Source: Escherichia phage CBA6
Length of the DNA stretch: 24,317 nucleotides
Strand: one strand, 5' to 3'
Sequence record: KM389296.1
Shown here piece by piece: positions 2,874 to 23,319 of the stretch. The notes below the pieces were generated by a model. It searched no databases. It had not been told where the DNA came from and was given only the letters and a program-made list of their open reading frames with translations. Numbering within the stretch: position 1 is the stretch's first letter; each line of letters begins with the position of its first letter. The position numbers and the translations under genes were made by a program.

Positions 2874-3332
2874 TCATGGCACCAAAGTAATGACGATCAT
2901 ATTGAGTACTGTGTCAACTGCGATACCAGAATCTTCTTCATGTATAGTTGATGCACGTAAATGAATGTCAGAAATATAATTGTCAATATGCATAGACGTC
3001 AGGTAAGGGCGGTGCTGGTACACAGGGCGATTGATCTGTACATATTCACGCAAGATGCTGAATGAAAAGTCTTCACATTGAGTGGTGTCAATTCGCAAAA
3101 AGCGTTGGGCGTGACAGGTCTTTAATTCAGTCACTTTTCCCAAATAATGAAGGTCTCCGAATGAACCGATGCGGAACATTACATCCACTTCAGATTTGAA
3201 AATTTCACGTTCAATAAGAGTCGCTGGTGCCCAACAAACTTCTTCCTTGTCTTCAGAAAACAACGTGTCTATCACTTCTGGTAATTGGATATAACCAAAG
3301 TTGTGGCGAGGGTTGGTGAGAATTTTATCCAT
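2874..3332 (-). CDS. Hypothetical protein (152 aa)
   Basis: ATG at 3332 preceded by the conserved leader AGCAGGAATTATATC; the track's 3353 start is TTG. No recognisable motif. Confidence 0.55.
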   Translation of the reverse strand: MDKILTNPRHNFGYIQLPEVIDTLFSEDKEEVCWAPATLIEREIFKSEVDVMFRIGSFGDLHYLGKVTELKTCHAQRFLRIDTTQCEDFSFSILREYVQINRPVYQHRPYLTSMHIDNYISDIHLRASTIHEEDSGIAVDTVLNMIVITLVP

Positions 3333-3409
3333 GATATAATTCCTGCTGTTCAATTTGTGGCGTTTGCCAATGAATTACTGGGAAGTATAGGCGGGAAGGT
3401 TTCAAAAGT

Positions 3410-3432
3410 AAAGCCCCTGGATCAGGGGCTTT
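3410..3432 (-). terminator. Rho-independent terminator after the nrdH-like gene
   Basis: Stem AAAGCCCCTG / CAGGGGCTTT with 3-nt loop; on the minus strand it is followed by ACTTTTGAAA. Confidence 0.55.
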
Positions 3433-4776: not shown

Positions 4777-4796
4777 GTTTCTTTCCTGATGAATAA

Positions 4797-9562: not shown

Positions 9563-10051
9563 TTATGCCAGTTTGCTCACCAGAGTTTCAACGGCGTCTG
9601 CGCTCAGTTTACCCATTTTGACATACTGGGATTTTGCTTCACCGCCAGCGGCTTTCACGATATCGCTGTTGTCGTAACCTTTTTTCGGGAATACCATCAC
9701 AGAGAAGGTTCCGTTGTTCAGCGGGTTCAGCTGGATGCGCCCTTTTCCGACAGTGATGGTGCCGTAAGTTTCGGTCGTAGCTTCAACAACGTGGATGTCG
9801 TGTCCAAGGTCTTTCAGCATGCCAACTTTGTCAGCGGTTTTTGCTACGACTGCTTTATCAACCACAACCTGCTCAACCAGGGTGAAGCCGTTGGTCGCTT
9901 TGACTTTGCCGTTCAGCAGGTTCATGAAGGAAGTTTTGCCACCAGTGAAGCCAGCTGCCTGAGCGATGCGGAACATTTCAACTTTTGCAACTTCAGTGTT
10001 CAGTTCAAAAGAGATGGTGCCGTTGGTGATCAGAGTTTTGGTAGTAGCCAT
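9563..10051 (-). CDS. Hypothetical protein (162 aa), likely abundant
   Basis: ATG 10051 preceded by GAGGAATTACATC (conserved leader); the track's 10087 start is GTG. Thr/Gly/Val/Lys-rich; no recognisable motif. Confidence 0.6.
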   Translation of the reverse strand: MATTKTLITNGTISFELNTEVAKVEMFRIAQAAGFTGGKTSFMNLLNGKVKATNGFTLVEQVVVDKAVVAKTADKVGMLKDLGHDIHVVEATTETYGTITVGKGRIQLNPLNNGTFSVMVFPKKGYDNSDIVKAAGGEAKSQYVKMGKLSADAVETLVSKLA

Positions 10052-10201
10052 GATGTAATTCCTCATAATGTAGTTGGTTCGTTTCACTTTTCATTCGGCG
10101 GGGTGTTGTGTACCGCCCTATGTGAACTATAATAGTGCATCATTATTGAAGAGTAAAGTCTTTTTCAATAAAATTTTAAAATATTTTTGAAGTATTTTAA
10201 G

Positions 10202-13041: not shown

Positions 13042-15762
13042 TTATTTCAGACGGATCTGGAGATTACCACCCAGTGATTGTTCATATTCACTGTAAGCAC
13101 TGTCACCATTGCTCATAGCCCATTCGTCCGACTGACGGGCGCTATCCAAAGTCATGAGATTCGGTTCGGTCGGGTTGTATCCCTTCGCCTTCGCATCGTT
13201 GTATACCGTTTGCAGGTACTGGTTGGCACGGTTAATCTGATCTTTGAACTCACGATATGCACCTTCGGTTGTGTTGCGACGGAAGGTGATACTCCAATCG
13301 ACGTTAAGAACTGCGCCGCTATTGGTCACGTATACCTGCCAATCAAGATCTCGTCCGTTGGGAGCACTGTTGCGGATGGAATCGGAATATGTGGCCAGAT
13401 CGCTGCTGTTCTTGCCCCCAGCAGCTTGGTCTTTGGCGCGAGCCAGGGCATCAATGACTGCAGTGCGGTTTCTAGACTGCGCCAGATCTTTGTCTTGGAA
13501 CATAATTGCACCAAACTTACTGACGGTGATATCATTCAGAAACAGCTTGTTCGGGTTATAGTTTGATGAACTGAGATGGCTCAATTGAGCCGCAGCGTCT
13601 TTCAGGCGTTGTGAAGTCTCATTCAACGCATCTTGCACAGACTTGACAGATAACTGAATGTCATATCCGCTGCTGTTGACTACATTTCGGCCATTTTCGG
13701 TCAGCATGGTCGTGATGTTGGCCTTATTACGATCGAAGTCGTAAGTCACGTTCGTAACGAACCGTGCGGCTTGCAGCTGGCTACCCGCAGGGAACTGGAA
13801 GTCCCAAGCCACAGAGAACCCATGAACGGTTTCACCAAATATCTTCGCATTGCTTGGGGCTTTCAGGTTCGCAGTGATGACAGCGTTATCACTGGAATTT
13901 GTGTTGATTTCGCCGAAGATAGTCTTCCCATCAGAAGACTGGACCATCAGAGTATCTTTGCTGCGCCAGTCATAACGAACAATAAACGTCGTTCGAGGGA
14001 ACTCTTTTATCAGATCGAGTTTGACTGCCTTACCCAGAGTAAAACGATTTAACAATGCATCGGCGATCTTCAAAGTAAACGAAATACAATCGACATAAGA
14101 ATAACCCTGGGAACGGGAAACCTTTTGAATCGGGTATGGGGCACCGTTGATCGGAACAACACGACATTCCACTTCACCTTTGAACTGAGAATCAGCAGCG
14201 CGGGATATCGCACTGACGATTTCAAAAGCAGCGTTTTTCACGTCGCCTTCCAGCAGCAGCTGTTCATTGCCAGATAAATCAGAAACCACTTCTACAGAGA
14301 GTTTGCTGTTGACAATCCCCCAAAAATAGACTTGAATATCCAACCCGCCAGAAGTTCGATATTTGCCAGCACCAACCCGAGACAATTTTTCACCAGCATA
14401 CATGCCGACTTGCTGAGGAGCATATGTATCAACGATGCCCAAGATGCGGGCGATATAACCCTGGTTGCGCAGATCATCCATAGAACCGGTTTTTGGAAGA
14501 GTTTTCATGTCGACGGGAGCAGTAGCCCCTATTCCAAACTCGACGTATGCCACGATCTTCCCACCAGACTTCAGTTCCCAGCCCATTCCCTGACGGTCTG
14601 AAGCCGCCATGATTTTGCGATCCACTTCTCCACGCCCGACATATTCTTTGTTGAATACCGTCACTTGTGCGATAGACTGAGTGCGGGCAATCTTCGCCAT
14701 CGCGCCATCTTTGACCATGATAGCCAGGTCATTGGAACTCAGGGTCACGTCGTTCGCGCCGACCACCTTCACAACAGAACTGAAGATGCCGTTGGACTTT
14801 GCCATAACGGAGATGTTCCAGTCCGGATTTATGGAAGACGGTGCATCAGCATCAACGTCAACAGTCAAAACCACTTGCCCACCTTTCTTGAACACATACT
14901 GATCATAGATGCCTTTATTTTGTTTTGTCATGACAGCGCCGACCAGATCCTGGTTAGTGAATCCCCGCTTCATGCTCCATGCCACTTCGGTGCCGTCCGG
15001 ATATTTGTCGAAATCATACCCAAAGAACTTCGCCACTTCACGTGAGCCACTGACCAGCTGCACGTAATTTCCGCGAATTGGGTCACGGCCATTTTTCAGT
15101 TCAAGACTAGTGTCAGAACTGTTATACCATTGGCGGTTTACTTCAATCTCGGTGCTGGAGCCAGTCCCAACATCAGGGGTGTTGTTCTGAACCGGAACGT
15201 CTCCGACTTTGTCTGGATCGTCCCAAGTCACGCCTTTCATTTTCGGACCATCAAATACCTGAGCAGGATCCTTGCCTTTACGCACAACCCATACGAAGGC
15301 ACGGTCAGGGATTGGGGTATAAGTCAGATCCATGACGTTGAGTTTCTGCTTCAGACCAGATTGACGAATAATTTTTGGGAGTAACGTCGTTCCGCGTTCT
15401 AGAGCTTTCTTGGAGAAGTTAATCGCAAACCCATCAATGGTTTTACCCAGCGGTGTCGCCATGAATTGTTTAGTCGCTTCGATCATGGATGCGATGACAC
15501 GCATTGGGTTTTTGAAACGACCGATTGCGTCTGGATAGGTTGAACCACGTTTCTGGCCTATGAAGACCTGACGAACGTTCTTGCCCAGCCCCTGCGGGGT
15601 ATAAAATTGGATGCGGAATTCTTTTTCATCTTCGTCTACGAACGTGAAGAAAATGTCACCAGCATTTTTCTTGCCGAAAGTCAATTCGTATGGAGCGGAG
15701 TTAAACGCTTCGTCCAATTGTTTGGACTCGTCAAGGAAATTTAAGAAAGATTGGATGGCCAT
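13042..15762 (-). CDS. Large hypothetical protein (906 aa), function unknown
   Basis: Uninterrupted 2.7-kb ORF with ATG and AGGAG Shine-Dalgarno (AGGAGAATTACAATG); bracketed by hairpins; no catalytic motif recognised. Confidence 0.8.
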   Translation of the reverse strand: MAIQSFLNFLDESKQLDEAFNSAPYELTFGKKNAGDIFFTFVDEDEKEFRIQFYTPQGLGKNVRQVFIGQKRGSTYPDAIGRFKNPMRVIASMIEATKQFMATPLGKTIDGFAINFSKKALERGTTLLPKIIRQSGLKQKLNVMDLTYTPIPDRAFVWVVRKGKDPAQVFDGPKMKGVTWDDPDKVGDVPVQNNTPDVGTGSSTEIEVNRQWYNSSDTSLELKNGRDPIRGNYVQLVSGSREVAKFFGYDFDKYPDGTEVAWSMKRGFTNQDLVGAVMTKQNKGIYDQYVFKKGGQVVLTVDVDADAPSSINPDWNISVMAKSNGIFSSVVKVVGANDVTLSSNDLAIMVKDGAMAKIARTQSIAQVTVFNKEYVGRGEVDRKIMAASDRQGMGWELKSGGKIVAYVEFGIGATAPVDMKTLPKTGSMDDLRNQGYIARILGIVDTYAPQQVGMYAGEKLSRVGAGKYRTSGGLDIQVYFWGIVNSKLSVEVVSDLSGNEQLLLEGDVKNAAFEIVSAISRAADSQFKGEVECRVVPINGAPYPIQKVSRSQGYSYVDCISFTLKIADALLNRFTLGKAVKLDLIKEFPRTTFIVRYDWRSKDTLMVQSSDGKTIFGEINTNSSDNAVITANLKAPSNAKIFGETVHGFSVAWDFQFPAGSQLQAARFVTNVTYDFDRNKANITTMLTENGRNVVNSSGYDIQLSVKSVQDALNETSQRLKDAAAQLSHLSSSNYNPNKLFLNDITVSKFGAIMFQDKDLAQSRNRTAVIDALARAKDQAAGGKNSSDLATYSDSIRNSAPNGRDLDWQVYVTNSGAVLNVDWSITFRRNTTEGAYREFKDQINRANQYLQTVYNDAKAKGYNPTEPNLMTLDSARQSDEWAMSNGDSAYSEYEQSLGGNLQIRLK

Positions 15763-15816
15763 TGTAATTCTCCTGATAATAAATCGGTGCGGTTTTCCTT
15801 AATTAGCGAAAAGAAA

Positions 15817-15832
15817 GGGGCATCAAGCCCCC
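15817..15832 (-). terminator. Rho-independent terminator after the 122-aa gene
   Basis: Stem GGGGC / GCCCC with ATCAA loop; on the minus strand followed by TTTCTTTTCGC. Confidence 0.55.
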
Positions 15833-15843
15833 GCATATTCGTA

Positions 15844-16212
15844 TTATAACCCTTCAATCCTTACGTTGACATATTTTGTTTCGTAATTCGGGTCACGGCC
15901 TTCAGAGTAGTCATATGTCTGAATGGTCTGTACGCACAGAGTTATTTTGAATTTGGCAATCTTCATAACCGCGATGCCAAAGTCAACCAGGTCATCCTTT
16001 TTATCTAGCACCAGGCCTTTAGTGCCGAGTTCACGTAATAAGTCTTTAAACAAGCGCTTGGACGGGTTGCTGATATCGAGCGGACCAGTTTTACACAGGG
16101 GAAACCCCTTGATGATTTTGTTGCTACGGTCACGCGCGATTTTATTGTTCCCACGACGAATATTCTTGTACCCAGCAACGTTTAGAATGTTGTTCAATTC
16201 AGTTTTGGTCAT
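15844..16212 (-). CDS. Hypothetical protein (122 aa)
   Basis: ATG 16212 preceded by the conserved leader AGCAGGAACTACATC; the track's 16233 start is TTG. Basic, Lys-rich. Confidence 0.6.
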   Translation of the reverse strand: MTKTELNNILNVAGYKNIRRGNNKIARDRSNKIIKGFPLCKTGPLDISNPSKRLFKDLLRELGTKGLVLDKKDDLVDFGIAVMKIAKFKITLCVQTIQTYDYSEGRDPNYETKYVNVRIEGL

Positions 16213-16285
16213 GATGTAGTTCCTGCTTTTCAAGTTGGTGTCGTACTGCTTATGTTTAGAATTATACGGTAGTTATTGAAGAAGT

Positions 16286-16309
16286 AAAGGGGCGTTTGCC
16301 CCTTTTATT
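16286..16309. terminator. Bidirectional rho-independent terminator
   Basis: AAAGGGGC / GCCCCTTT stem with GTTT loop; TTTTATT on the plus side and TTTACTTCTTC on the minus side. Confidence 0.65.
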
Positions 16310-16317
16310 GAATTATT

Positions 16318-16956
16318 TTAAGGTGTGGGATTGACGACAGGGATGTGAAATCTGATTCCAGCAACGATGTCCTTCAGCTGAGGCTTCCAGCCGTCCACCA
16401 GGCGGGACAACGCATTGGAACCAGGATAGACGATAATGATATCGCTTCCGGTAACATTATGCTGAGGGAATTGTGACATGTATTGCTCCATCGTCACACC
16501 TGTGTCAATCAATACAGGACCAACATCAGAAGATGCATATGTCGCGCCCAGACCGTCAATACCCCATGCCAGAATTCCATAATCGGGAATATTGGCTTCG
16601 GATGTTATGGTGTATCCGAAGATACGATTCAACGCCGAGAAGTCATAGACATTGTGAGCACTATCATATGCCAGATAACCTTTGGCCAACATATCAGCAA
16701 AGATCGCGTCTGTGTCGCCAGCGGCTGGGGTCGGAACGGTAAACAGTAGCTCACCTGCCGGAGGAGTAGGATACGTGCCGAGAGCATAAAGGCACCATGC
16801 GTCGACACATTTCTTGATAAACGCTTCGGGAGCAACATAATCAGCCAGGCGCATCGTTCCAGAATATTCAGAACTGATGATGCCTTCTTTTGCCCCCTGA
16901 ATCGCAATAAACACCATTAAGTGCTCGTATCCGGTCTGAGATGGAGTGATATTCAT
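16318..16956 (-). CDS. Hypothetical protein (212 aa)
   Basis: ATG overlaps the stop of the upstream SLT-like gene by 1 nt (TAATG); no signal peptide; no recognisable motif. Confidence 0.6.
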   Translation of the reverse strand: MNITPSQTGYEHLMVFIAIQGAKEGIISSEYSGTMRLADYVAPEAFIKKCVDAWCLYALGTYPTPPAGELLFTVPTPAAGDTDAIFADMLAKGYLAYDSAHNVYDFSALNRIFGYTITSEANIPDYGILAWGIDGLGATYASSDVGPVLIDTGVTMEQYMSQFPQHNVTGSDIIIVYPGSNALSRLVDGWKPQLKDIVAGIRFHIPVVNPTP

Positions 16957-22023: not shown

Positions 22024-22780
22024 TATTCTTTTCTCCAACTGATTCGGCTAACAATGTGGGGCTGTCCATTATATCTTCAAGACTAAATTGAGTAGAGCCG
22101 AAGTCATTATCTGAATTATCTTCGGCGTCAGCGGTAATGGTATTTTCACTCTTCGTAAGACATTGAAGTATACCGCGAGGGATTTTCTTATTCTTTTCCT
22201 CTTCTTTGATAGCCGTTTGTTTTTGGCGTTCCTTTTCACGCTGGGCTTCTTTCTTATTTTCGAAATTACCGATGCGTTCACGAAAGTCCATCGTTATCCC
22301 AGTGCTATCAACGAAGGTTTGTTGTTGGAAGTCTGGGTCATCCGATAAAGCTGCGAACCCACCTGCTTCTTCAAAGGAACGCAATTTAATATAGTTGTGT
22401 TCTTCTTCACTCGTGAGTTTCTTGGCGAATGAGCGATCAGCACACATAGTCACCCAAGAGAAGAAGTTGATCTTTCCTTTCTTGCCGATATGGCTAACAT
22501 CAAAGGTGTGAAGGTAACGAAGGATGTTCACAACCGCTTCACTCACCATGTCTTCACGATATGGATAATCACGGTAGTTGTAGCGCATACTCATATTCTT
22601 GATTATCATCTGAACATTCATGGCCACATAATTGGGGATTCTTGGTAGGGGTGTTCCTTCGGCTAATGCCTTTTTACGAGCAGGGATCCAATCACGCAAT
22701 ATCCCCACAACTCGATCGTTATCTTCGTCAGTGAAATATTTGGTGACGTTATCACCCCTGTCTACAAAATTCATACCCAT
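22010..22780 (-). CDS. Late-transcription sigma factor (T4 gp55-like) with extended charged C-terminus
   Basis: Collinear with recalled T4 gp55 (ILRDWI; YVAMNVQMIIKNMSMRYNYRDY...LHTFD; NFFSWVTMCADRSFAKKL); position next to gp47/gp46 as in T4. The track's 22795 start is TTG; ATG 22780 has a GAGGA Shine-Dalgarno. Confidence 0.7.
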   Translation of the reverse strand: MGMNFVDRGDNVTKYFTDEDNDRVVGILRDWIPARKKALAEGTPLPRIPNYVAMNVQMIIKNMSMRYNYRDYPYREDMVSEAVVNILRYLHTFDVSHIGKKGKINFFSWVTMCADRSFAKKLTSEEEHNYIKLRSFEEAGGFAALSDDPDFQQQTFVDSTGITMDFRERIGNFENKKEAQREKERQKQTAIKEEEKNKKIPRGILQCLTKSENTITADAEDNSDNDFGSTQFSLEDIMDSPTLLAESVGEKNNGDC

Positions 22781-22791
22781 CGTGATAATCC

Positions 22792-23319
22792 TCAAATACC
22801 AATGAATTCATTGAAAGAACCAACAACCTTTCTGACCAGGAAACGATTATTTTCAAGAACCATCGAGCTATTTTCTTTGGCTCTGACGCTCCACTGATCT
22901 GCGATTTCGTTGCCGATATTCCCCGCATGACCTTTCACCCATTTTAATTCAAGTTCACAAATTGAACAAACTTTGTCATAATAATTGAACAATTCGAGTA
23001 GGAGTTCTGTGTTCTTAGGCGGCATCCCTTCATATTCCCATTTTCTACGCCACTCCAAAACACTATTGATAACATATTGGCTATCGGATATAATACGGGC
23101 TGGGGGAATACAGCGTTCACCGCAATTCGAGAATTTCCATAGAATCTTCAAGGCGTTTATAACCCCAAGCAACTCAGCGATATTATTCGTTGACGGTGGG
23201 GGTAAATACCCATAAAACACTTTCCATTGCTCTCCAGTGATTGGACTGATAGCAAATGCCCAACCTGCGGCTTGTGTCTTCTGCGGGGAAGATGCCCCGT
23301 CAGTGTATATTTCAATCAT
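22792..23319 (-). CDS. rnhA: Ribonuclease HI (bacterial RnhA-type)
   Basis: Catalytic motifs IYTDGA, NNIAELLGVINAL, SDSQYVINSV, WVKGHAGNIGNEIAD. The track's 23334 start is TTG; first ATG is 23319. Confidence 0.8.
   Translation of the reverse strand: MIEIYTDGASSPQKTQAAGWAFAISPITGEQWKVFYGYLPPPSTNNIAELLGVINALKILWKFSNCGERCIPPARIISDSQYVINSVLEWRRKWEYEGMPPKNTELLLELFNYYDKVCSICELELKWVKGHAGNIGNEIADQWSVRAKENSSMVLENNRFLVRKVVGSFNEFIGI

What the first reader, a model, noticed from the sequence alone, without database searches (positions are those of the whole stretch)
3330..3360. Conserved ~30-nt leader shared by unrelated genes
The leaders of the 152-aa gene (3330-3360, minus) and the 122-aa gene (16210-16240, minus) match at 25 of 31 positions (CCACAAATTGAACAGCAGGAATTATATCATG versus CACCAACTTGAAAAGCAGGAACTACATCATG), although the encoded proteins are unrelated. 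The 162-aa gene (10049-10085) and the 906-aa gene (15760-15780) share the core AGGA(A/G)-ATTACA-(TC)ATG. A conserved leader on unrelated genes points to a common regulatory element, such as a translational operator, an RNase processing site or a promoter-proximal motif. It also explains the artefactual N-terminal SRNYIM-type extensions in the ORF track.
Basis: seen in the sequence. Interest (0 to 1): 0.5.

Follow-up and report, generated by a model that had tools for sequence, protein, structure and literature searches.

The report
Repeated phage promoter–leader cassette at gene-swap sites
The shared 30-base leader is real: it is the end of a repeated promoter-plus-ribosome-site cassette in a Vi01-like Salmonella phage, and related phages swap small unrelated genes of unknown function at exactly this point, as happens in T4-type phages.

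Summary
The two leaders match at 25 of 31 positions and rank among the most similar of 22,366 gene-start pairs in the closest complete genome.

The window is a Kuttervirus (Ackermannviridae, Vi01-like). The leader is the 3' end of a ~110-nt composite cassette: AT-rich upstream tract, terminator hairpin, sigma70-type promoter (TTTACT-N16/17-TATAMT) and a short 5'UTR ending in CAAnTTGAA-N4-AGGAAyTAyATCATG.

SeF3a has four strong copies, two of them in the window, plus a few weaker ones, including the 162-aa gene. The 906-aa gene is not a member.

Orthologous cassettes in other genera are 85-90% identical, against 72-80% for flanking genes.

The cassette marks gene-swap slots. The same leader precedes four unrelated proteins (91, 111, 122, 123 aa) at one slot and two alternative genes at the other. 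Window-versus-Vi01 homology breaks exactly at the two ATGs. One contig has two leader copies directly flanking a gene that other phages lack.

This is the Ackermannviridae counterpart of the PeSL cassettes of T4-type phages, so a new member of a known kind. An extra role as operator for the phage's RegA homologue is not excluded. Promoter activity, translation effects and recombination are all inferred from sequence.

The parts
3330..3357 (-). Cassette D, conserved 28-nt translation-initiation module CAAATTGAACAGCAGGAATTATATCATG. It holds TTGAA, the Shine-Dalgarno AGGA, an A/U-rich spacer and the ATG at 3332-3330.
   Evidence: It is invariant in orthologues from other genera, while the 5' part of the UTR carries a 12-nt indel.
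3358..3383 (-). Cassette D, 5' part of the predicted 5'UTR, between the -10 hexamer and the conserved module. The predicted transcription start is near 3377.
   Evidence: This stretch is variable and carries a 12-nt indel between Kuttervirus and Taipeivirus orthologues. The transcription start is inferred, not measured.
3384..3412 (-). Cassette D, sigma70-type promoter: TTTACT (3412-3407), 17-nt spacer, TATACT (3389-3384).
   Evidence: The -35 with TTTGAAA and CCTATACTTCC are invariant in 10 orthologues.
3413..3429 (-). Cassette D, terminator-type hairpin GCCCCTG-atc-CAGGGGC, abutting the -35. It closes the upstream glutaredoxin/nrdB operon.
   Evidence: Compensatory changes appear in orthologues: GCCCCTC/GAGGGGC and GCCCCC/GGGGGC.
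2874..3332 (-). 152-aa gene of unknown function (phrog_3902), driven by cassette D. In Vi01 and most Kuttervirus, an extra 77-aa gene (Vi01_080c) lies between leader D and this gene.
16210..16237 (-). Cassette B, conserved 28-nt module CAACTTGAAAAGCAGGAACTACATCATG, with the ATG at 16212-16210.
16238..16260 (-). Cassette B, 5' part of the predicted 5'UTR, including CATAAGCAGTAC, which is invariant across genera.
16261..16288 (-). Cassette B, sigma70-type promoter: TTTACT (16288-16283), 16-nt spacer TCTTCAATAACTACCG, TATAAT (16266-16261).
   Evidence: 10 of 12 against TTGACA/TATAAT; 12 of 12 when TTTACT is accepted as the -35. The exact TTTACTTCTTCAATAA 16-mer also occurs at SeF3a 13505 and 124851.
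16289..16320 (-). Cassette B, AT-rich upstream tract TAAAATAATTCAATAAAA plus hairpin GGGGC-aaac-GCCCC (16302-16289), abutting the -35.
   Evidence: The tract is conserved, and the stem shows a compensatory GGGAC/GTCCC variant.
15844..16212 (-). 122-aa gene of unknown function (phrog_13016) occupying the variable slot behind cassette B. Vi01 has an unrelated 91-aa gene here. Other phages have 111-aa or 123-aa genes.
15816..15832 (-). Terminator hairpin that forms the right-hand border of the B slot. Homology with Vi01, Menlow and Dickeya phages resumes here.
10049..10157 (-). Cassette F, a weaker family member ahead of the 162-aa gene (9563..10051). It comprises TTTACT (10157-10152), 17-nt spacer CTTCAATAATGATGCAC, TATTAT (10134-10129), a hairpin near 10117-10097 downstream of the -10, a longer leader, and AGGAATTACATCATG (10063-10049).
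   Evidence: (E=0.004; conserved in the Klebsiella and Dickeya phages).

Best explanation
The 30-nt leader is the 3' end of a repeated composite regulatory cassette of a Vi01-like (Kuttervirus) phage.

Each cassette has these parts, in order:
- an AT-rich, UP-like upstream tract;
- a G+C-rich terminator hairpin, whose position relative to the promoter differs between copies;
- a strong host-type (sigma70) early promoter, TTTACT-N16/17-TATAMT;
- a 45-50-nt, mostly unstructured 5'UTR;
- a fixed translation-initiation module, CAAnTTGAA-N4-AGGAA-y-TAy-ATy-ATG.

Inferred function: the hairpin stops read-through from the upstream operon. The promoter then starts a new early transcript, and the open leader with its AGGA Shine-Dalgarno sequence gives efficient translation of whatever small gene follows.

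Because the same ~30-110 nt recur at several places and in all relatives, they also provide homology for the phage's recombination system. Small genes of unknown function are therefore inserted, deleted and replaced at these borders. That is why unrelated proteins carry the same leader.

Shown here from sequence comparison: the repeat family, its anatomy, its conservation across genera, and the coincidence of swap breakpoints with the leader.

Inferred only: promoter activity, early timing, the translational effect and the recombination mechanism.
For: Anatomy:
- Both leaders lie downstream of a hairpin plus TTTACT-N16/17-TATAMT.

Family:
- A profile of the ~110-nt unit finds four strong copies in SeF3a (E 1e-23 to 1e-24) and weaker ones at 25325 and 54589.
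- A weight matrix of the 28-nt module puts the top hits at gene starts, well above the shuffle null.
- The hairpin sits upstream of the -35 (B, D), between -35 and -10 (A), downstream of the -10 (E, F), or is absent (C).

Constraint:
- Cassette B is 85-90% identical in Klebsiella and Dickeya phages, against 72-80% for flanking coding DNA.
- In D orthologues the 5'UTR has a 12-nt indel, but the last 28 nt are almost invariant. Hairpin stems show compensatory changes.
- The -28..-13 part is not a general gene-start feature.
- Leaders A, B and C fold less well than their shuffles (z +1.1 to +1.5).

Gene swapping:
- Window-versus-Vi01 homology breaks at the ATG of both leaders (3326-3330 and 16209). 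At the B slot it resumes in the next terminator. The same breaks appear against Menlow and Dickeya.
- The B leader precedes four unrelated protein clusters. The D leader precedes two. A third slot holds three. All are different PHROGs.
- Identical 62-nt upstreams occur with different genes. The same gene occurs with a 16-nt patch of leader differences.
- In L162 two leader modules directly flank the 91-aa gene, and other phages have only the 91-aa or only the 111-aa gene.
- The module also occurs without a promoter, straight after a stop codon (L162, L143). So it is not merely part of the promoter.

Background:
- There are only 58 scattered matches in 596 Gb of bacterial genomes, against 2-4 per 157-kb Ackermannviridae genome.
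Against: - There are no transcription-start, expression or recombination data for any Kuttervirus. Literature searches found none.
- The -35 TTTACT deviates from TTGACA. From my own knowledge (the source paper appeared but I did not read it), these phages carry hypermodified thymidine, so sigma70 recognition is assumed, not shown.
- Only about 4-8 leader copies occur per genome, against about 50 PeSLs in phi1/RB49. The contribution to genome plasticity is therefore smaller.
- A breakpoint at the ATG is what any replacement of a gene behind a conserved regulatory region would look like. It does not by itself prove that recombination happened inside the leader. The L100/L160 patch and the L162 direct repeat are suggestive, but few.
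- In Vi01, the junction downstream of the extra gene Vi01_080c is not a clear leader copy (AGGAGCATAATATG).
- The function of the invariant TTGAA is unexplained.
Confidence: 0.7

Rival explanations
1. The 28-nt module is a translational operator. The phage's RegA-type repressor binds the unstructured, A/U-rich region from the Shine-Dalgarno sequence to the AUG of these early mRNAs. It shuts off their translation together once RegA accumulates. This could hold in addition to the cassette role.
For: The genome encodes a full-length RegA homologue (Pfam PF01818, E=6e-35, SeF3a 22693-23157). T4 RegA operators overlap or lie just 5' of the AUG, are A+U-rich and unstructured, and occur on about 30 early mRNAs (PMC3014915). 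Leaders A, B and C are unstructured. The module is conserved beyond what a Shine-Dalgarno sequence needs, and it occurs without a promoter.
Against: T4 RegA sites show no strong sequence conservation, unlike this near-invariant module. The leader lacks the poly(A)/AAAAUU tract of T4 operators. The orthologues of the classic RegA targets whose starts were seen here score poorly: gp45, rIIA and gp44 are all absent from the top of the weight-matrix ranking, although rIIA and gp44 do carry TTTGAAAC. No binding data exist.
Confidence: 0.15
2. The leader is an endoribonuclease processing site, RegB-like or RNase E. Cleavage would inactivate or mature early transcripts at the ribosome-binding site.
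For: T4 RegB cuts in GGAG/GGA of early Shine-Dalgarno regions followed by A-rich sequence (PMC3014915), and the module contains AGGAA. CAAAUU in cassette D and CAAUUU in cassette C fit the loose RNase E preference. That preference is my own knowledge and was not tested.
Against: The motif has GGAA, not GGAG. The CBA120 genome paper reports only RNase H orthologues at the RNA level for this phage group. I did not search for RegB myself. Both nuclease motifs are too short to explain an invariant 28-mer.
Confidence: 0.05
3. The similarity is only shared ancestry: a recent duplication of an intergenic segment, with no function in the leader part itself.
For: The copies are clearly homologous over about 110 nt.
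Against: Orthologous copies in different genera are closer to each other than paralogues within one genome. The duplications therefore predate the genera, yet the 28-nt module stays nearly invariant in every lineage while adjacent UTR and coding DNA diverge.
Confidence: 0.05
4. Chance resemblance of two strong ribosome-binding sites.
For: The AGGA, the A at -3, the T at -2 and the ATG are generic in this genome.
Against: The window has 3 hits against 0.02 expected and 2 against 0.00. The pairs are the top 3 of 22,366. Similarity continues through the promoter.
Confidence: 0.01

Closest known systems
PeSL (promoter-early stem-loop) regulatory cassettes of T4-type phages phi1/RB49, PST and nt-1 (Arbiol et al. 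2010, PMC2839356; Comeau et al. 2014, PMC4122927)
   Same: Both are repeated intergenic units. Both combine an AT-rich upstream tract, a strong sigma70-like early promoter, a G+C-rich stem-loop whose position relative to the promoter varies between copies, and a Shine-Dalgarno sequence plus start codon at the 3' end. Both lie upstream of small genes without known homologues. Insertions, deletions and replacements between related phages have their borders in the cassettes (one search compared).
   Different: The phage family differs (Ackermannviridae, only distantly T4-related). There is no sequence similarity to the published PeSLs. The -35 is TTTACT with a conserved TTCAATAA spacer. Only about 12-15 composite promoter/hairpin units and 4-8 leader copies occur per genome, against about 50. 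Here the most invariant part is the 28-nt translation-initiation module, which also occurs on its own between tandem genes. Mini-circle formation, promoter strength and terminator activity were shown experimentally for PeSLs and are untested here.
T4 early promoters ('uber' UP/-35/TGn/-10 promoters with extended consensus; Hinton 2010, PMC2988021)
   Same: Host-RNA-polymerase promoters with an AT-rich UP-like tract and conserved positions outside the hexamers. They serve immediate-early genes.
   Different: No TGn extended -10 is seen here. The consensus sequence is different. CBA120-type phages lack Alt, MotA and AsiA homologues according to PMC3184105.
T7 gene 10 leader (the 'epsilon' translational enhancer upstream of the Shine-Dalgarno sequence). 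Recalled from memory of the pET vector sequence TTAACTTTAAGAAGGAGATATACATATG; not tested.
   Same: It has the same layout: a short A/U-rich element (UUAACUUUAA against CAAnUUGAA) a few nt upstream of AGGA, then an A/U-rich ...AUACAU-type spacer before the AUG, in a strong phage mRNA.
   Different: This is a resemblance only. There is no homology and no experimental test. The mechanism of epsilon itself is debated.
Morons of temperate phages (autonomous promoter-gene-terminator units). From my own knowledge.
   Same: A single small accessory gene bracketed by its own promoter and terminator, present or absent between relatives.
   Different: Morons are defined in lambdoid prophages and do not share a common repeated cassette sequence. 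Here the borders are a conserved repeat in a virulent phage.

Membership tests
PeSL-type composite regulatory cassette | Repeated sequence family in intergenic regions of one genome | tested here: met
   Four strong and at least two weaker copies in SeF3a by nhmmer. The three best of 22,366 gene-start pairs are among them.
PeSL-type composite regulatory cassette | Sigma70-like early promoter with an AT-rich tract upstream of the -35 | tested here: met
   By sequence only. TTTACT-N16/17-TATAMT scores 9-10 of 12 against TTGACA/TATAAT. It scores 11-12 of 12, where TTTACT is accepted as the -35. AATAATTCAATAAAA-type tracts lie upstream. Promoter activity was not measured.
PeSL-type composite regulatory cassette | Stable G+C-rich stem-loop whose position relative to the promoter differs between copies | tested here: met
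   The hairpin is upstream of the -35 in B and D, between -35 and -10 in A, downstream of the -10 in E and F, and absent in C. Stems keep pairing through compensatory changes.
PeSL-type composite regulatory cassette | Shine-Dalgarno sequence and start codon of the downstream gene at the 3' end | tested here: met
   AGGAAyTAyATCATG ends every strong copy.
PeSL-type composite regulatory cassette | Located mostly upstream of genes without known function, in plastic regions | tested here: met
   All downstream proteins lack Pfam hits and belong to PHROGs of unknown function. The slots are variable between relatives.
PeSL-type composite regulatory cassette | Indel and replacement breakpoints between related phages fall in the cassettes | tested here: met
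   Breaks lie at 3326-3330, at 16209 and in the terminator at about 15821 against Vi01. The same breaks appear against Menlow and Dickeya. Mosaic leader/gene combinations and a direct-repeat configuration were found. This covers a few slots only and is not a genome-wide statistic.
PeSL-type composite regulatory cassette | Experimentally shown promoter and terminator activity, and cassette-bounded mini-circles | not testable with these tools
   Needs reporter assays and PCR on infected cells.
RegA translational operator (T4-type) | A RegA-family repressor is encoded by the phage | tested here: met
   PF01818, E=6e-35, full-length match, SeF3a 22693-23157. It lies outside the window.
RegA translational operator (T4-type) | Unstructured A+U-rich site overlapping or just 5' of the AUG | tested here: inconclusive
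   Leaders A-C are unstructured, and the spacer is A/U-rich. The same is true of any good ribosome-binding site. There is no poly(A)/AAAAUU tract as in T4 operators.
RegA translational operator (T4-type) | Binding and repression by RegA | not testable with these tools
   Requires biochemistry or genetics.
Any Rfam RNA family | Match to a curated covariance model | tested here: not met
   No hit at gathering score in the window. The only sub-threshold hit is a chance match, UptR at 21.8 bits against the required 100.

The most novel reading that the evidence does not exclude
The invariant 28-nt module (CAAnTTGAA-N4-AGGAAyTAyATyATG) may be more than a good ribosome-binding site. It could be a dedicated, portable RNA signal that travels with interchangeable small genes. 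One possibility is the operator of the phage's RegA homologue, or of another factor. That would define a small post-transcriptional regulon of immediate-early accessory genes, so any gene dropped into a slot would automatically acquire both strong early translation and timed shut-off.
Probability: 0.15. Interest if true: 0.6.

Novelty: new member of a known kind. Interest (0 to 1): 0.4.

Why it matters
The published genome papers I checked for this phage group list only five to eight sigma70-like promoters. The CBA120 paper states that early promoters could not be identified by informatics. The cassette family gives a concrete early-promoter and leader consensus for Ackermannviridae.

It has practical uses:
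- It corrects start codons that are mis-annotated at the in-frame TTG in deposited genomes.
- It pinpoints the few slots where these therapeutic-candidate phages exchange small genes of unknown function. Those genes are plausible host-takeover or anti-defence candidates.
- It suggests natural sites, with a ready-made expression cassette, for engineering payload genes into Kuttervirus phages.

It also extends the PeSL model of cassette-mediated modular shuffling beyond the T4-like phages in which it was described.

Tried and rejected
- An exact scan of IMG/VR for the promoter 16-mer TTTACTTCTTCAATAA returned mostly chance hits in unrelated contigs and was not useful.
- The 906-aa gene's 'core' match was considered and rejected as a family member. 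It gets no nhmmer or weight-matrix hit.
- TTGAAA as the -35 of an internal promoter was rejected. No conserved -10 lies 16-18 nt downstream, because that position falls in the non-homologous coding sequence (seen directly).
- Translation from the in-frame TTG was rejected. There is no Shine-Dalgarno sequence upstream, and in-frame TGA codons occur in the Dickeya phage's B-slot leader and in the A-type leaders (SeF3a 13582, L147).
- A conserved RNA structure in the leader was rejected. Leaders A-C are less stable than their shuffles. Only the window's D copy has a private Shine-Dalgarno hairpin.
- Known RNA families were rejected.
- Mimicry of a host leader was rejected. No enterobacterial hit appears among 58 scattered matches in 596 Gb.
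- The ~14 non-Ackermannviridae IMG/VR hits (about 9 independent loci) were not followed further. No chance expectation was computed for IMG/VR. The bacterial-genome scan shows that scattered single matches do occur as background.
- Literature searches for Kuttervirus transcriptomics found nothing.

Full report
**Identity of the window.** The 24.3-kb window is 97-99% identical to Vi01-like Salmonella phages (Kuttervirus, Ackermannviridae). The best matches are SeF3a ON809763.1 and Vi01 NC_015296. It covers the baseplate gp5, nrdAB, primase, gp46/47, gp55 and RNase H region, and most genes are on the minus strand. I fetched the whole SeF3a genome as a proxy for the full genome.

**The observation.** The two 31-mers are as quoted and match at 25 of 31 positions.
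- The start codons are 3332-3330 and 16212-16210.
- AGGAAYTAYATCATG occurs three times in the window, against 0.02 expected from shuffles.
- The 28-mer CAANTTGAANAGCAGGAAYTAYATCATG occurs twice, against 0.00 expected.
- I compared positions -28..+3 of 213 predicted SeF3a genes in 22,366 pairs. The mode is 11 identities. The three best pairs (27, 25, 25) are all among these two leaders and a third copy at SeF3a 124928.
- The downstream proteins are unrelated: blastp E>1, no Pfam hit, and different PHROG families of unknown function.
- The in-frame TTG 21 nt upstream of the ATG explains the SRNYIM extensions. The deposited SeF3a annotation uses those TTG starts.
- The 162-aa gene carries the same 15-mer and is a weak family member. 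The 906-aa gene is not a member.

**What the leader belongs to.** Both leaders lie 48-51 nt downstream of a sigma70-type promoter, TTTACT-N16/17-TATAMT. The promoter is itself abutted by a G+C-rich hairpin that ends the upstream operon.
- A profile of the whole ~110-nt unit finds four strong copies in SeF3a: A 13480-13586, B 48477-48589 (window 16320-16210), C 124825-124932, and D 61335-61445 (window 3429-3330). Their E-values are 1e-23 to 1e-24.
- Weaker copies lie at E 25325-25447 and F 54589-54720, the window's 162-aa gene.
- Three copies share the exact 16-mer TTTACTTCTTCAATAA.
- TTCAATAA is about five-fold over-represented in the genome, and half of its occurrences lie just upstream of genes.
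- The hairpin is upstream of the -35 in B and D, between -35 and -10 in A, downstream of the -10 in E and F, and absent in C.
- A loose promoter scan suggests about a dozen promoter/hairpin composites per genome. By weight matrix, only four carry the strong leader module and three or four more (F, uvsY, a tailspike gene) exceed the shuffle null.
- So this is a small paralogous family, not a genome-wide motif. The general gene-start context carries information only at -12..-8 (GGA) and at -3/-2. The CAAnTTGAAnAG part is specific to the family.

**Conservation.** Cassette B is 85-90% identical in Klebsiella (Taipeivirus) and Dickeya (Limestonevirus) phages. The flanking coding DNA is 72-80% identical.
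- I aligned 15 B orthologues and 10 D orthologues. The upstream AT tract, the -35, part of the spacer, the -10 and the last ~28 nt are almost invariant.
- Hairpin loops vary, and stems keep pairing through compensatory changes (GGGGC/GCCCC to GGGAC/GTCCC; CCCCTG/CAGGGG to CCCCTC/GAGGGG to CCCCC/GGGGG).
- In D, the 5' half of the UTR carries a 12-nt indel, while CAAAT(A)TTGAAyAGCAGGAAyTAyATCATG is kept.
- Orthologues are closer to each other than paralogues are. The copies are therefore old, and the module has been maintained in each lineage.
- Leaders A, B and C fold less well than their shuffles (z +1.1 to +1.5). Only the window's D copy has a private hairpin that pairs the Shine-Dalgarno sequence with codons 4-5.
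- There is no Rfam match.

**Why unrelated genes share the leader.** Aligning the window with Vi01 gives homology breaks exactly at the two start codons.
- At 3326-3330, Vi01 has an extra 241 bp. This is the 77-aa gene Vi01_080c, inserted between leader D and the 152-aa gene.
- At 16209, the gene behind leader B is replaced outright. The window has the 122-aa gene and Vi01 has the unrelated 91-aa Vi01_095c. Homology resumes in the next terminator at about 15821-15832.
- The same two borders appear against the Klebsiella and Dickeya phages.
- In GenBank phages the 122-aa gene is in 57 records, the 91-aa gene in 141 and Vi01_080c in 158.

An exact scan of IMG/VR for TTGAA-N4-AGGAA-N-TAY-ATY-ATG gave 53 hits, about 39 of them in Ackermannviridae-sized contigs, at 2-4 per genome.
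- Behind the same B cassette there are four unrelated protein clusters (91, 111, 122 and 123 aa).
- Behind D there are two clusters.
- A third slot (TATAAA motif, hairpin, leader) holds three.
- Identical 62-nt upstream sequences occur with different genes (L160/L145 and L100/L172).
- The same 122-aa gene occurs with two leader variants that differ at 5 positions confined to the last 16 nt (L100/L160).
- In contig L162 the slot reads: B cassette, 91-aa gene, TAA, TTTGAACCGAAGGAACTATATCATG, 111-aa gene, terminator. Two leader modules therefore directly flank the 91-aa gene. Other phages carry only the 91-aa gene or only the 111-aa gene directly behind the promoter.
- The same short module follows a stop codon ahead of a 75-aa gene in L143. 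The module thus also works, or at least persists, inside polycistronic units without a promoter.

**Background rate.** The same pattern has 58 scattered single matches in 596 Gb of bacterial and archaeal genomes, none in enterobacteria. The phage enrichment is therefore enormous, and the leader does not copy a host leader.

**Mechanism proposed.** The hairpin insulates the unit from upstream transcription. The host-type promoter fires early. The open leader and AGGA site give strong translation. The repeated conserved borders give the phage's recombination system (UvsX/UvsY, gp46/47) homology for inserting, deleting or replacing the small genes.
- Shown here, from sequence comparison only: the repeat family, its architecture, the cross-genus constraint, and the coincidence of swap borders with the module.
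- Inferred: promoter activity and timing, the translational effect, and recombination within the module.

**Caveats.**
- There are no transcript or expression data for any Kuttervirus.
- The -35 is non-canonical. From my own knowledge (the source paper was listed but not read), the DNA is thymidine-hypermodified.
- Breaks at the ATG are also what replacement behind any conserved regulatory region would look like.
- The Vi01_080c downstream junction is not a clear leader copy.
- The role of the invariant TTGAA is unexplained.

**Rival readings.**
- Translational operator. The genome encodes a full-length RegA homologue (PF01818, E=6e-35). T4 RegA sites are unstructured A+U-rich stretches at the AUG of about 30 early mRNAs (PMC3014915). 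However, T4 operators are poorly conserved in sequence, and the orthologues of classic RegA targets seen here (gp45, gp44, rIIA) do not carry the module. This reading is not excluded, and I give it about 0.15.
- RNase site. RegB cuts GGAG, while the module has GGAA. No RegB is reported for this group, though I did not search for one. This is unlikely.
- Neutral duplication and chance are both contradicted.

**Comparison with what is known.** The anatomy and behaviour match the PeSL cassettes of T4-type phages. Those have an AT-rich tract, a strong sigma70 early promoter, a stem-loop in variable position, a Shine-Dalgarno sequence and start codon at the 3' end, a location upstream of genes without homologues, and indels bounded by the cassettes (PMC2839356; PMC4122927).
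- Six sequence-level defining features are met here. The experimental features (promoter and terminator assays, mini-circles) cannot be tested with these tools.
- Differences: another phage family, no sequence similarity to published PeSLs, far fewer copies, and an unusually invariant translation-initiation module that also occurs alone.
- The genome papers on AG3, CBA120 and LIMEstone report only five to eight sigma70-like promoters and none of the text passages I retrieved from them mentions such cassettes. CBA120's authors state that early promoters could not be found by informatics.
- From memory, not tested: the module's layout also resembles the T7 gene 10 leader.

**Verdict.** The feature is real and non-random. 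The fuller explanation is a PeSL-like promoter-terminator-leader cassette that marks gene-exchange slots. I class it as a new member of a known kind, of moderate interest.

Noticed in passing
window 17658, 13022, 12398, 8984, 7211 (minus strand): [CT]TAAATA, which resembles the T4 late promoter TATAAATA, occurs six times on the minus strand. Five are intergenic, and there are none on the plus strand. Three sit in the loop of, or right next to, terminator hairpins (GGGCAC..GTGCCC, CCCCC..GGGGG, GCCCC..GGGGC). At the endolysin gene, AAATACCTC..GAGGTATTT forms an inverted repeat that reaches the ribosome-binding site. These look like composite terminator/late-promoter units and form a second leader family (SeF3a 15098 against 155875, 24 of 31).
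   Followed up: partly
window 4777-4784 and 14820-15167: There are two further differences from Vi01. The 95-aa gene Vi01_083c between nrdB and nrdA is absent from the window. A 347-bp segment inside the 906-aa gene replaces 26 bp of Vi01.
   Followed up: no
window 10049-10080 (minus): The leader of the 162-aa gene contains a degenerate second copy of the module directly upstream of the real one...ACCAACTACATTATG|AGGAATTACATCATG. It has its own ATG in frame. It may be the scar of an earlier gene deletion between two leader copies.
   Followed up: no
window 3330-3353 and 16210-16233; loci: Most Y-type variation in the module falls at -10, -7 and -4. That is a period of 3, in frame with the ATG and with the TTG at -21, like wobble positions. 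However, the Dickeya phage's B-slot leader, the A-type leaders (SeF3a 13582, L147) and one denV-slot variant (L175) have an in-frame TGA, and there is no Shine-Dalgarno sequence before the TTG. Translation of the leader is therefore unlikely. The pattern is unexplained.
   Followed up: partly
L002 22693-23157 (SeF3a, outside the window): A full-length RegA-type translational repressor is present (PF01818, E=6e-35). The CBA120 genome paper says that only RNase H orthologues were identified at the translation/RNA level.
   Followed up: partly
SeF3a 48564..48953, 61420..61899 and 124748..125485 (L002-L004): The deposited annotation starts these genes at the in-frame TTG, or further upstream, instead of at the ATG behind the AGGA site. 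The Menlow annotation uses the ATG.
   Followed up: yes
L171, L163, L131, L156 (IMG/VR contigs of 8-64 kb): A group of non-Ackermannviridae viral contigs carries TATACT...CAATTGAACGAAAGGAACTAyATTATG ahead of a 164-aa gene. The leader module is identical, but it appears to be a different phage group. This could be chance or horizontal spread of the module.
   Followed up: no
window 15844-16212; hits H84, H85: The 122-aa protein has 30-31% identical relatives in Proteus phages Pm5461 and PM2 (~162-163 kb genomes). From my own knowledge these are T4-like and lie outside Ackermannviridae. In some Kuttervirus genomes a relative (36-37% identical to the window's protein in GenBank relatives) sits at another site behind a B-like promoter (L159, L170). 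That suggests this gene moves between phage families and between slots.
   Followed up: partly
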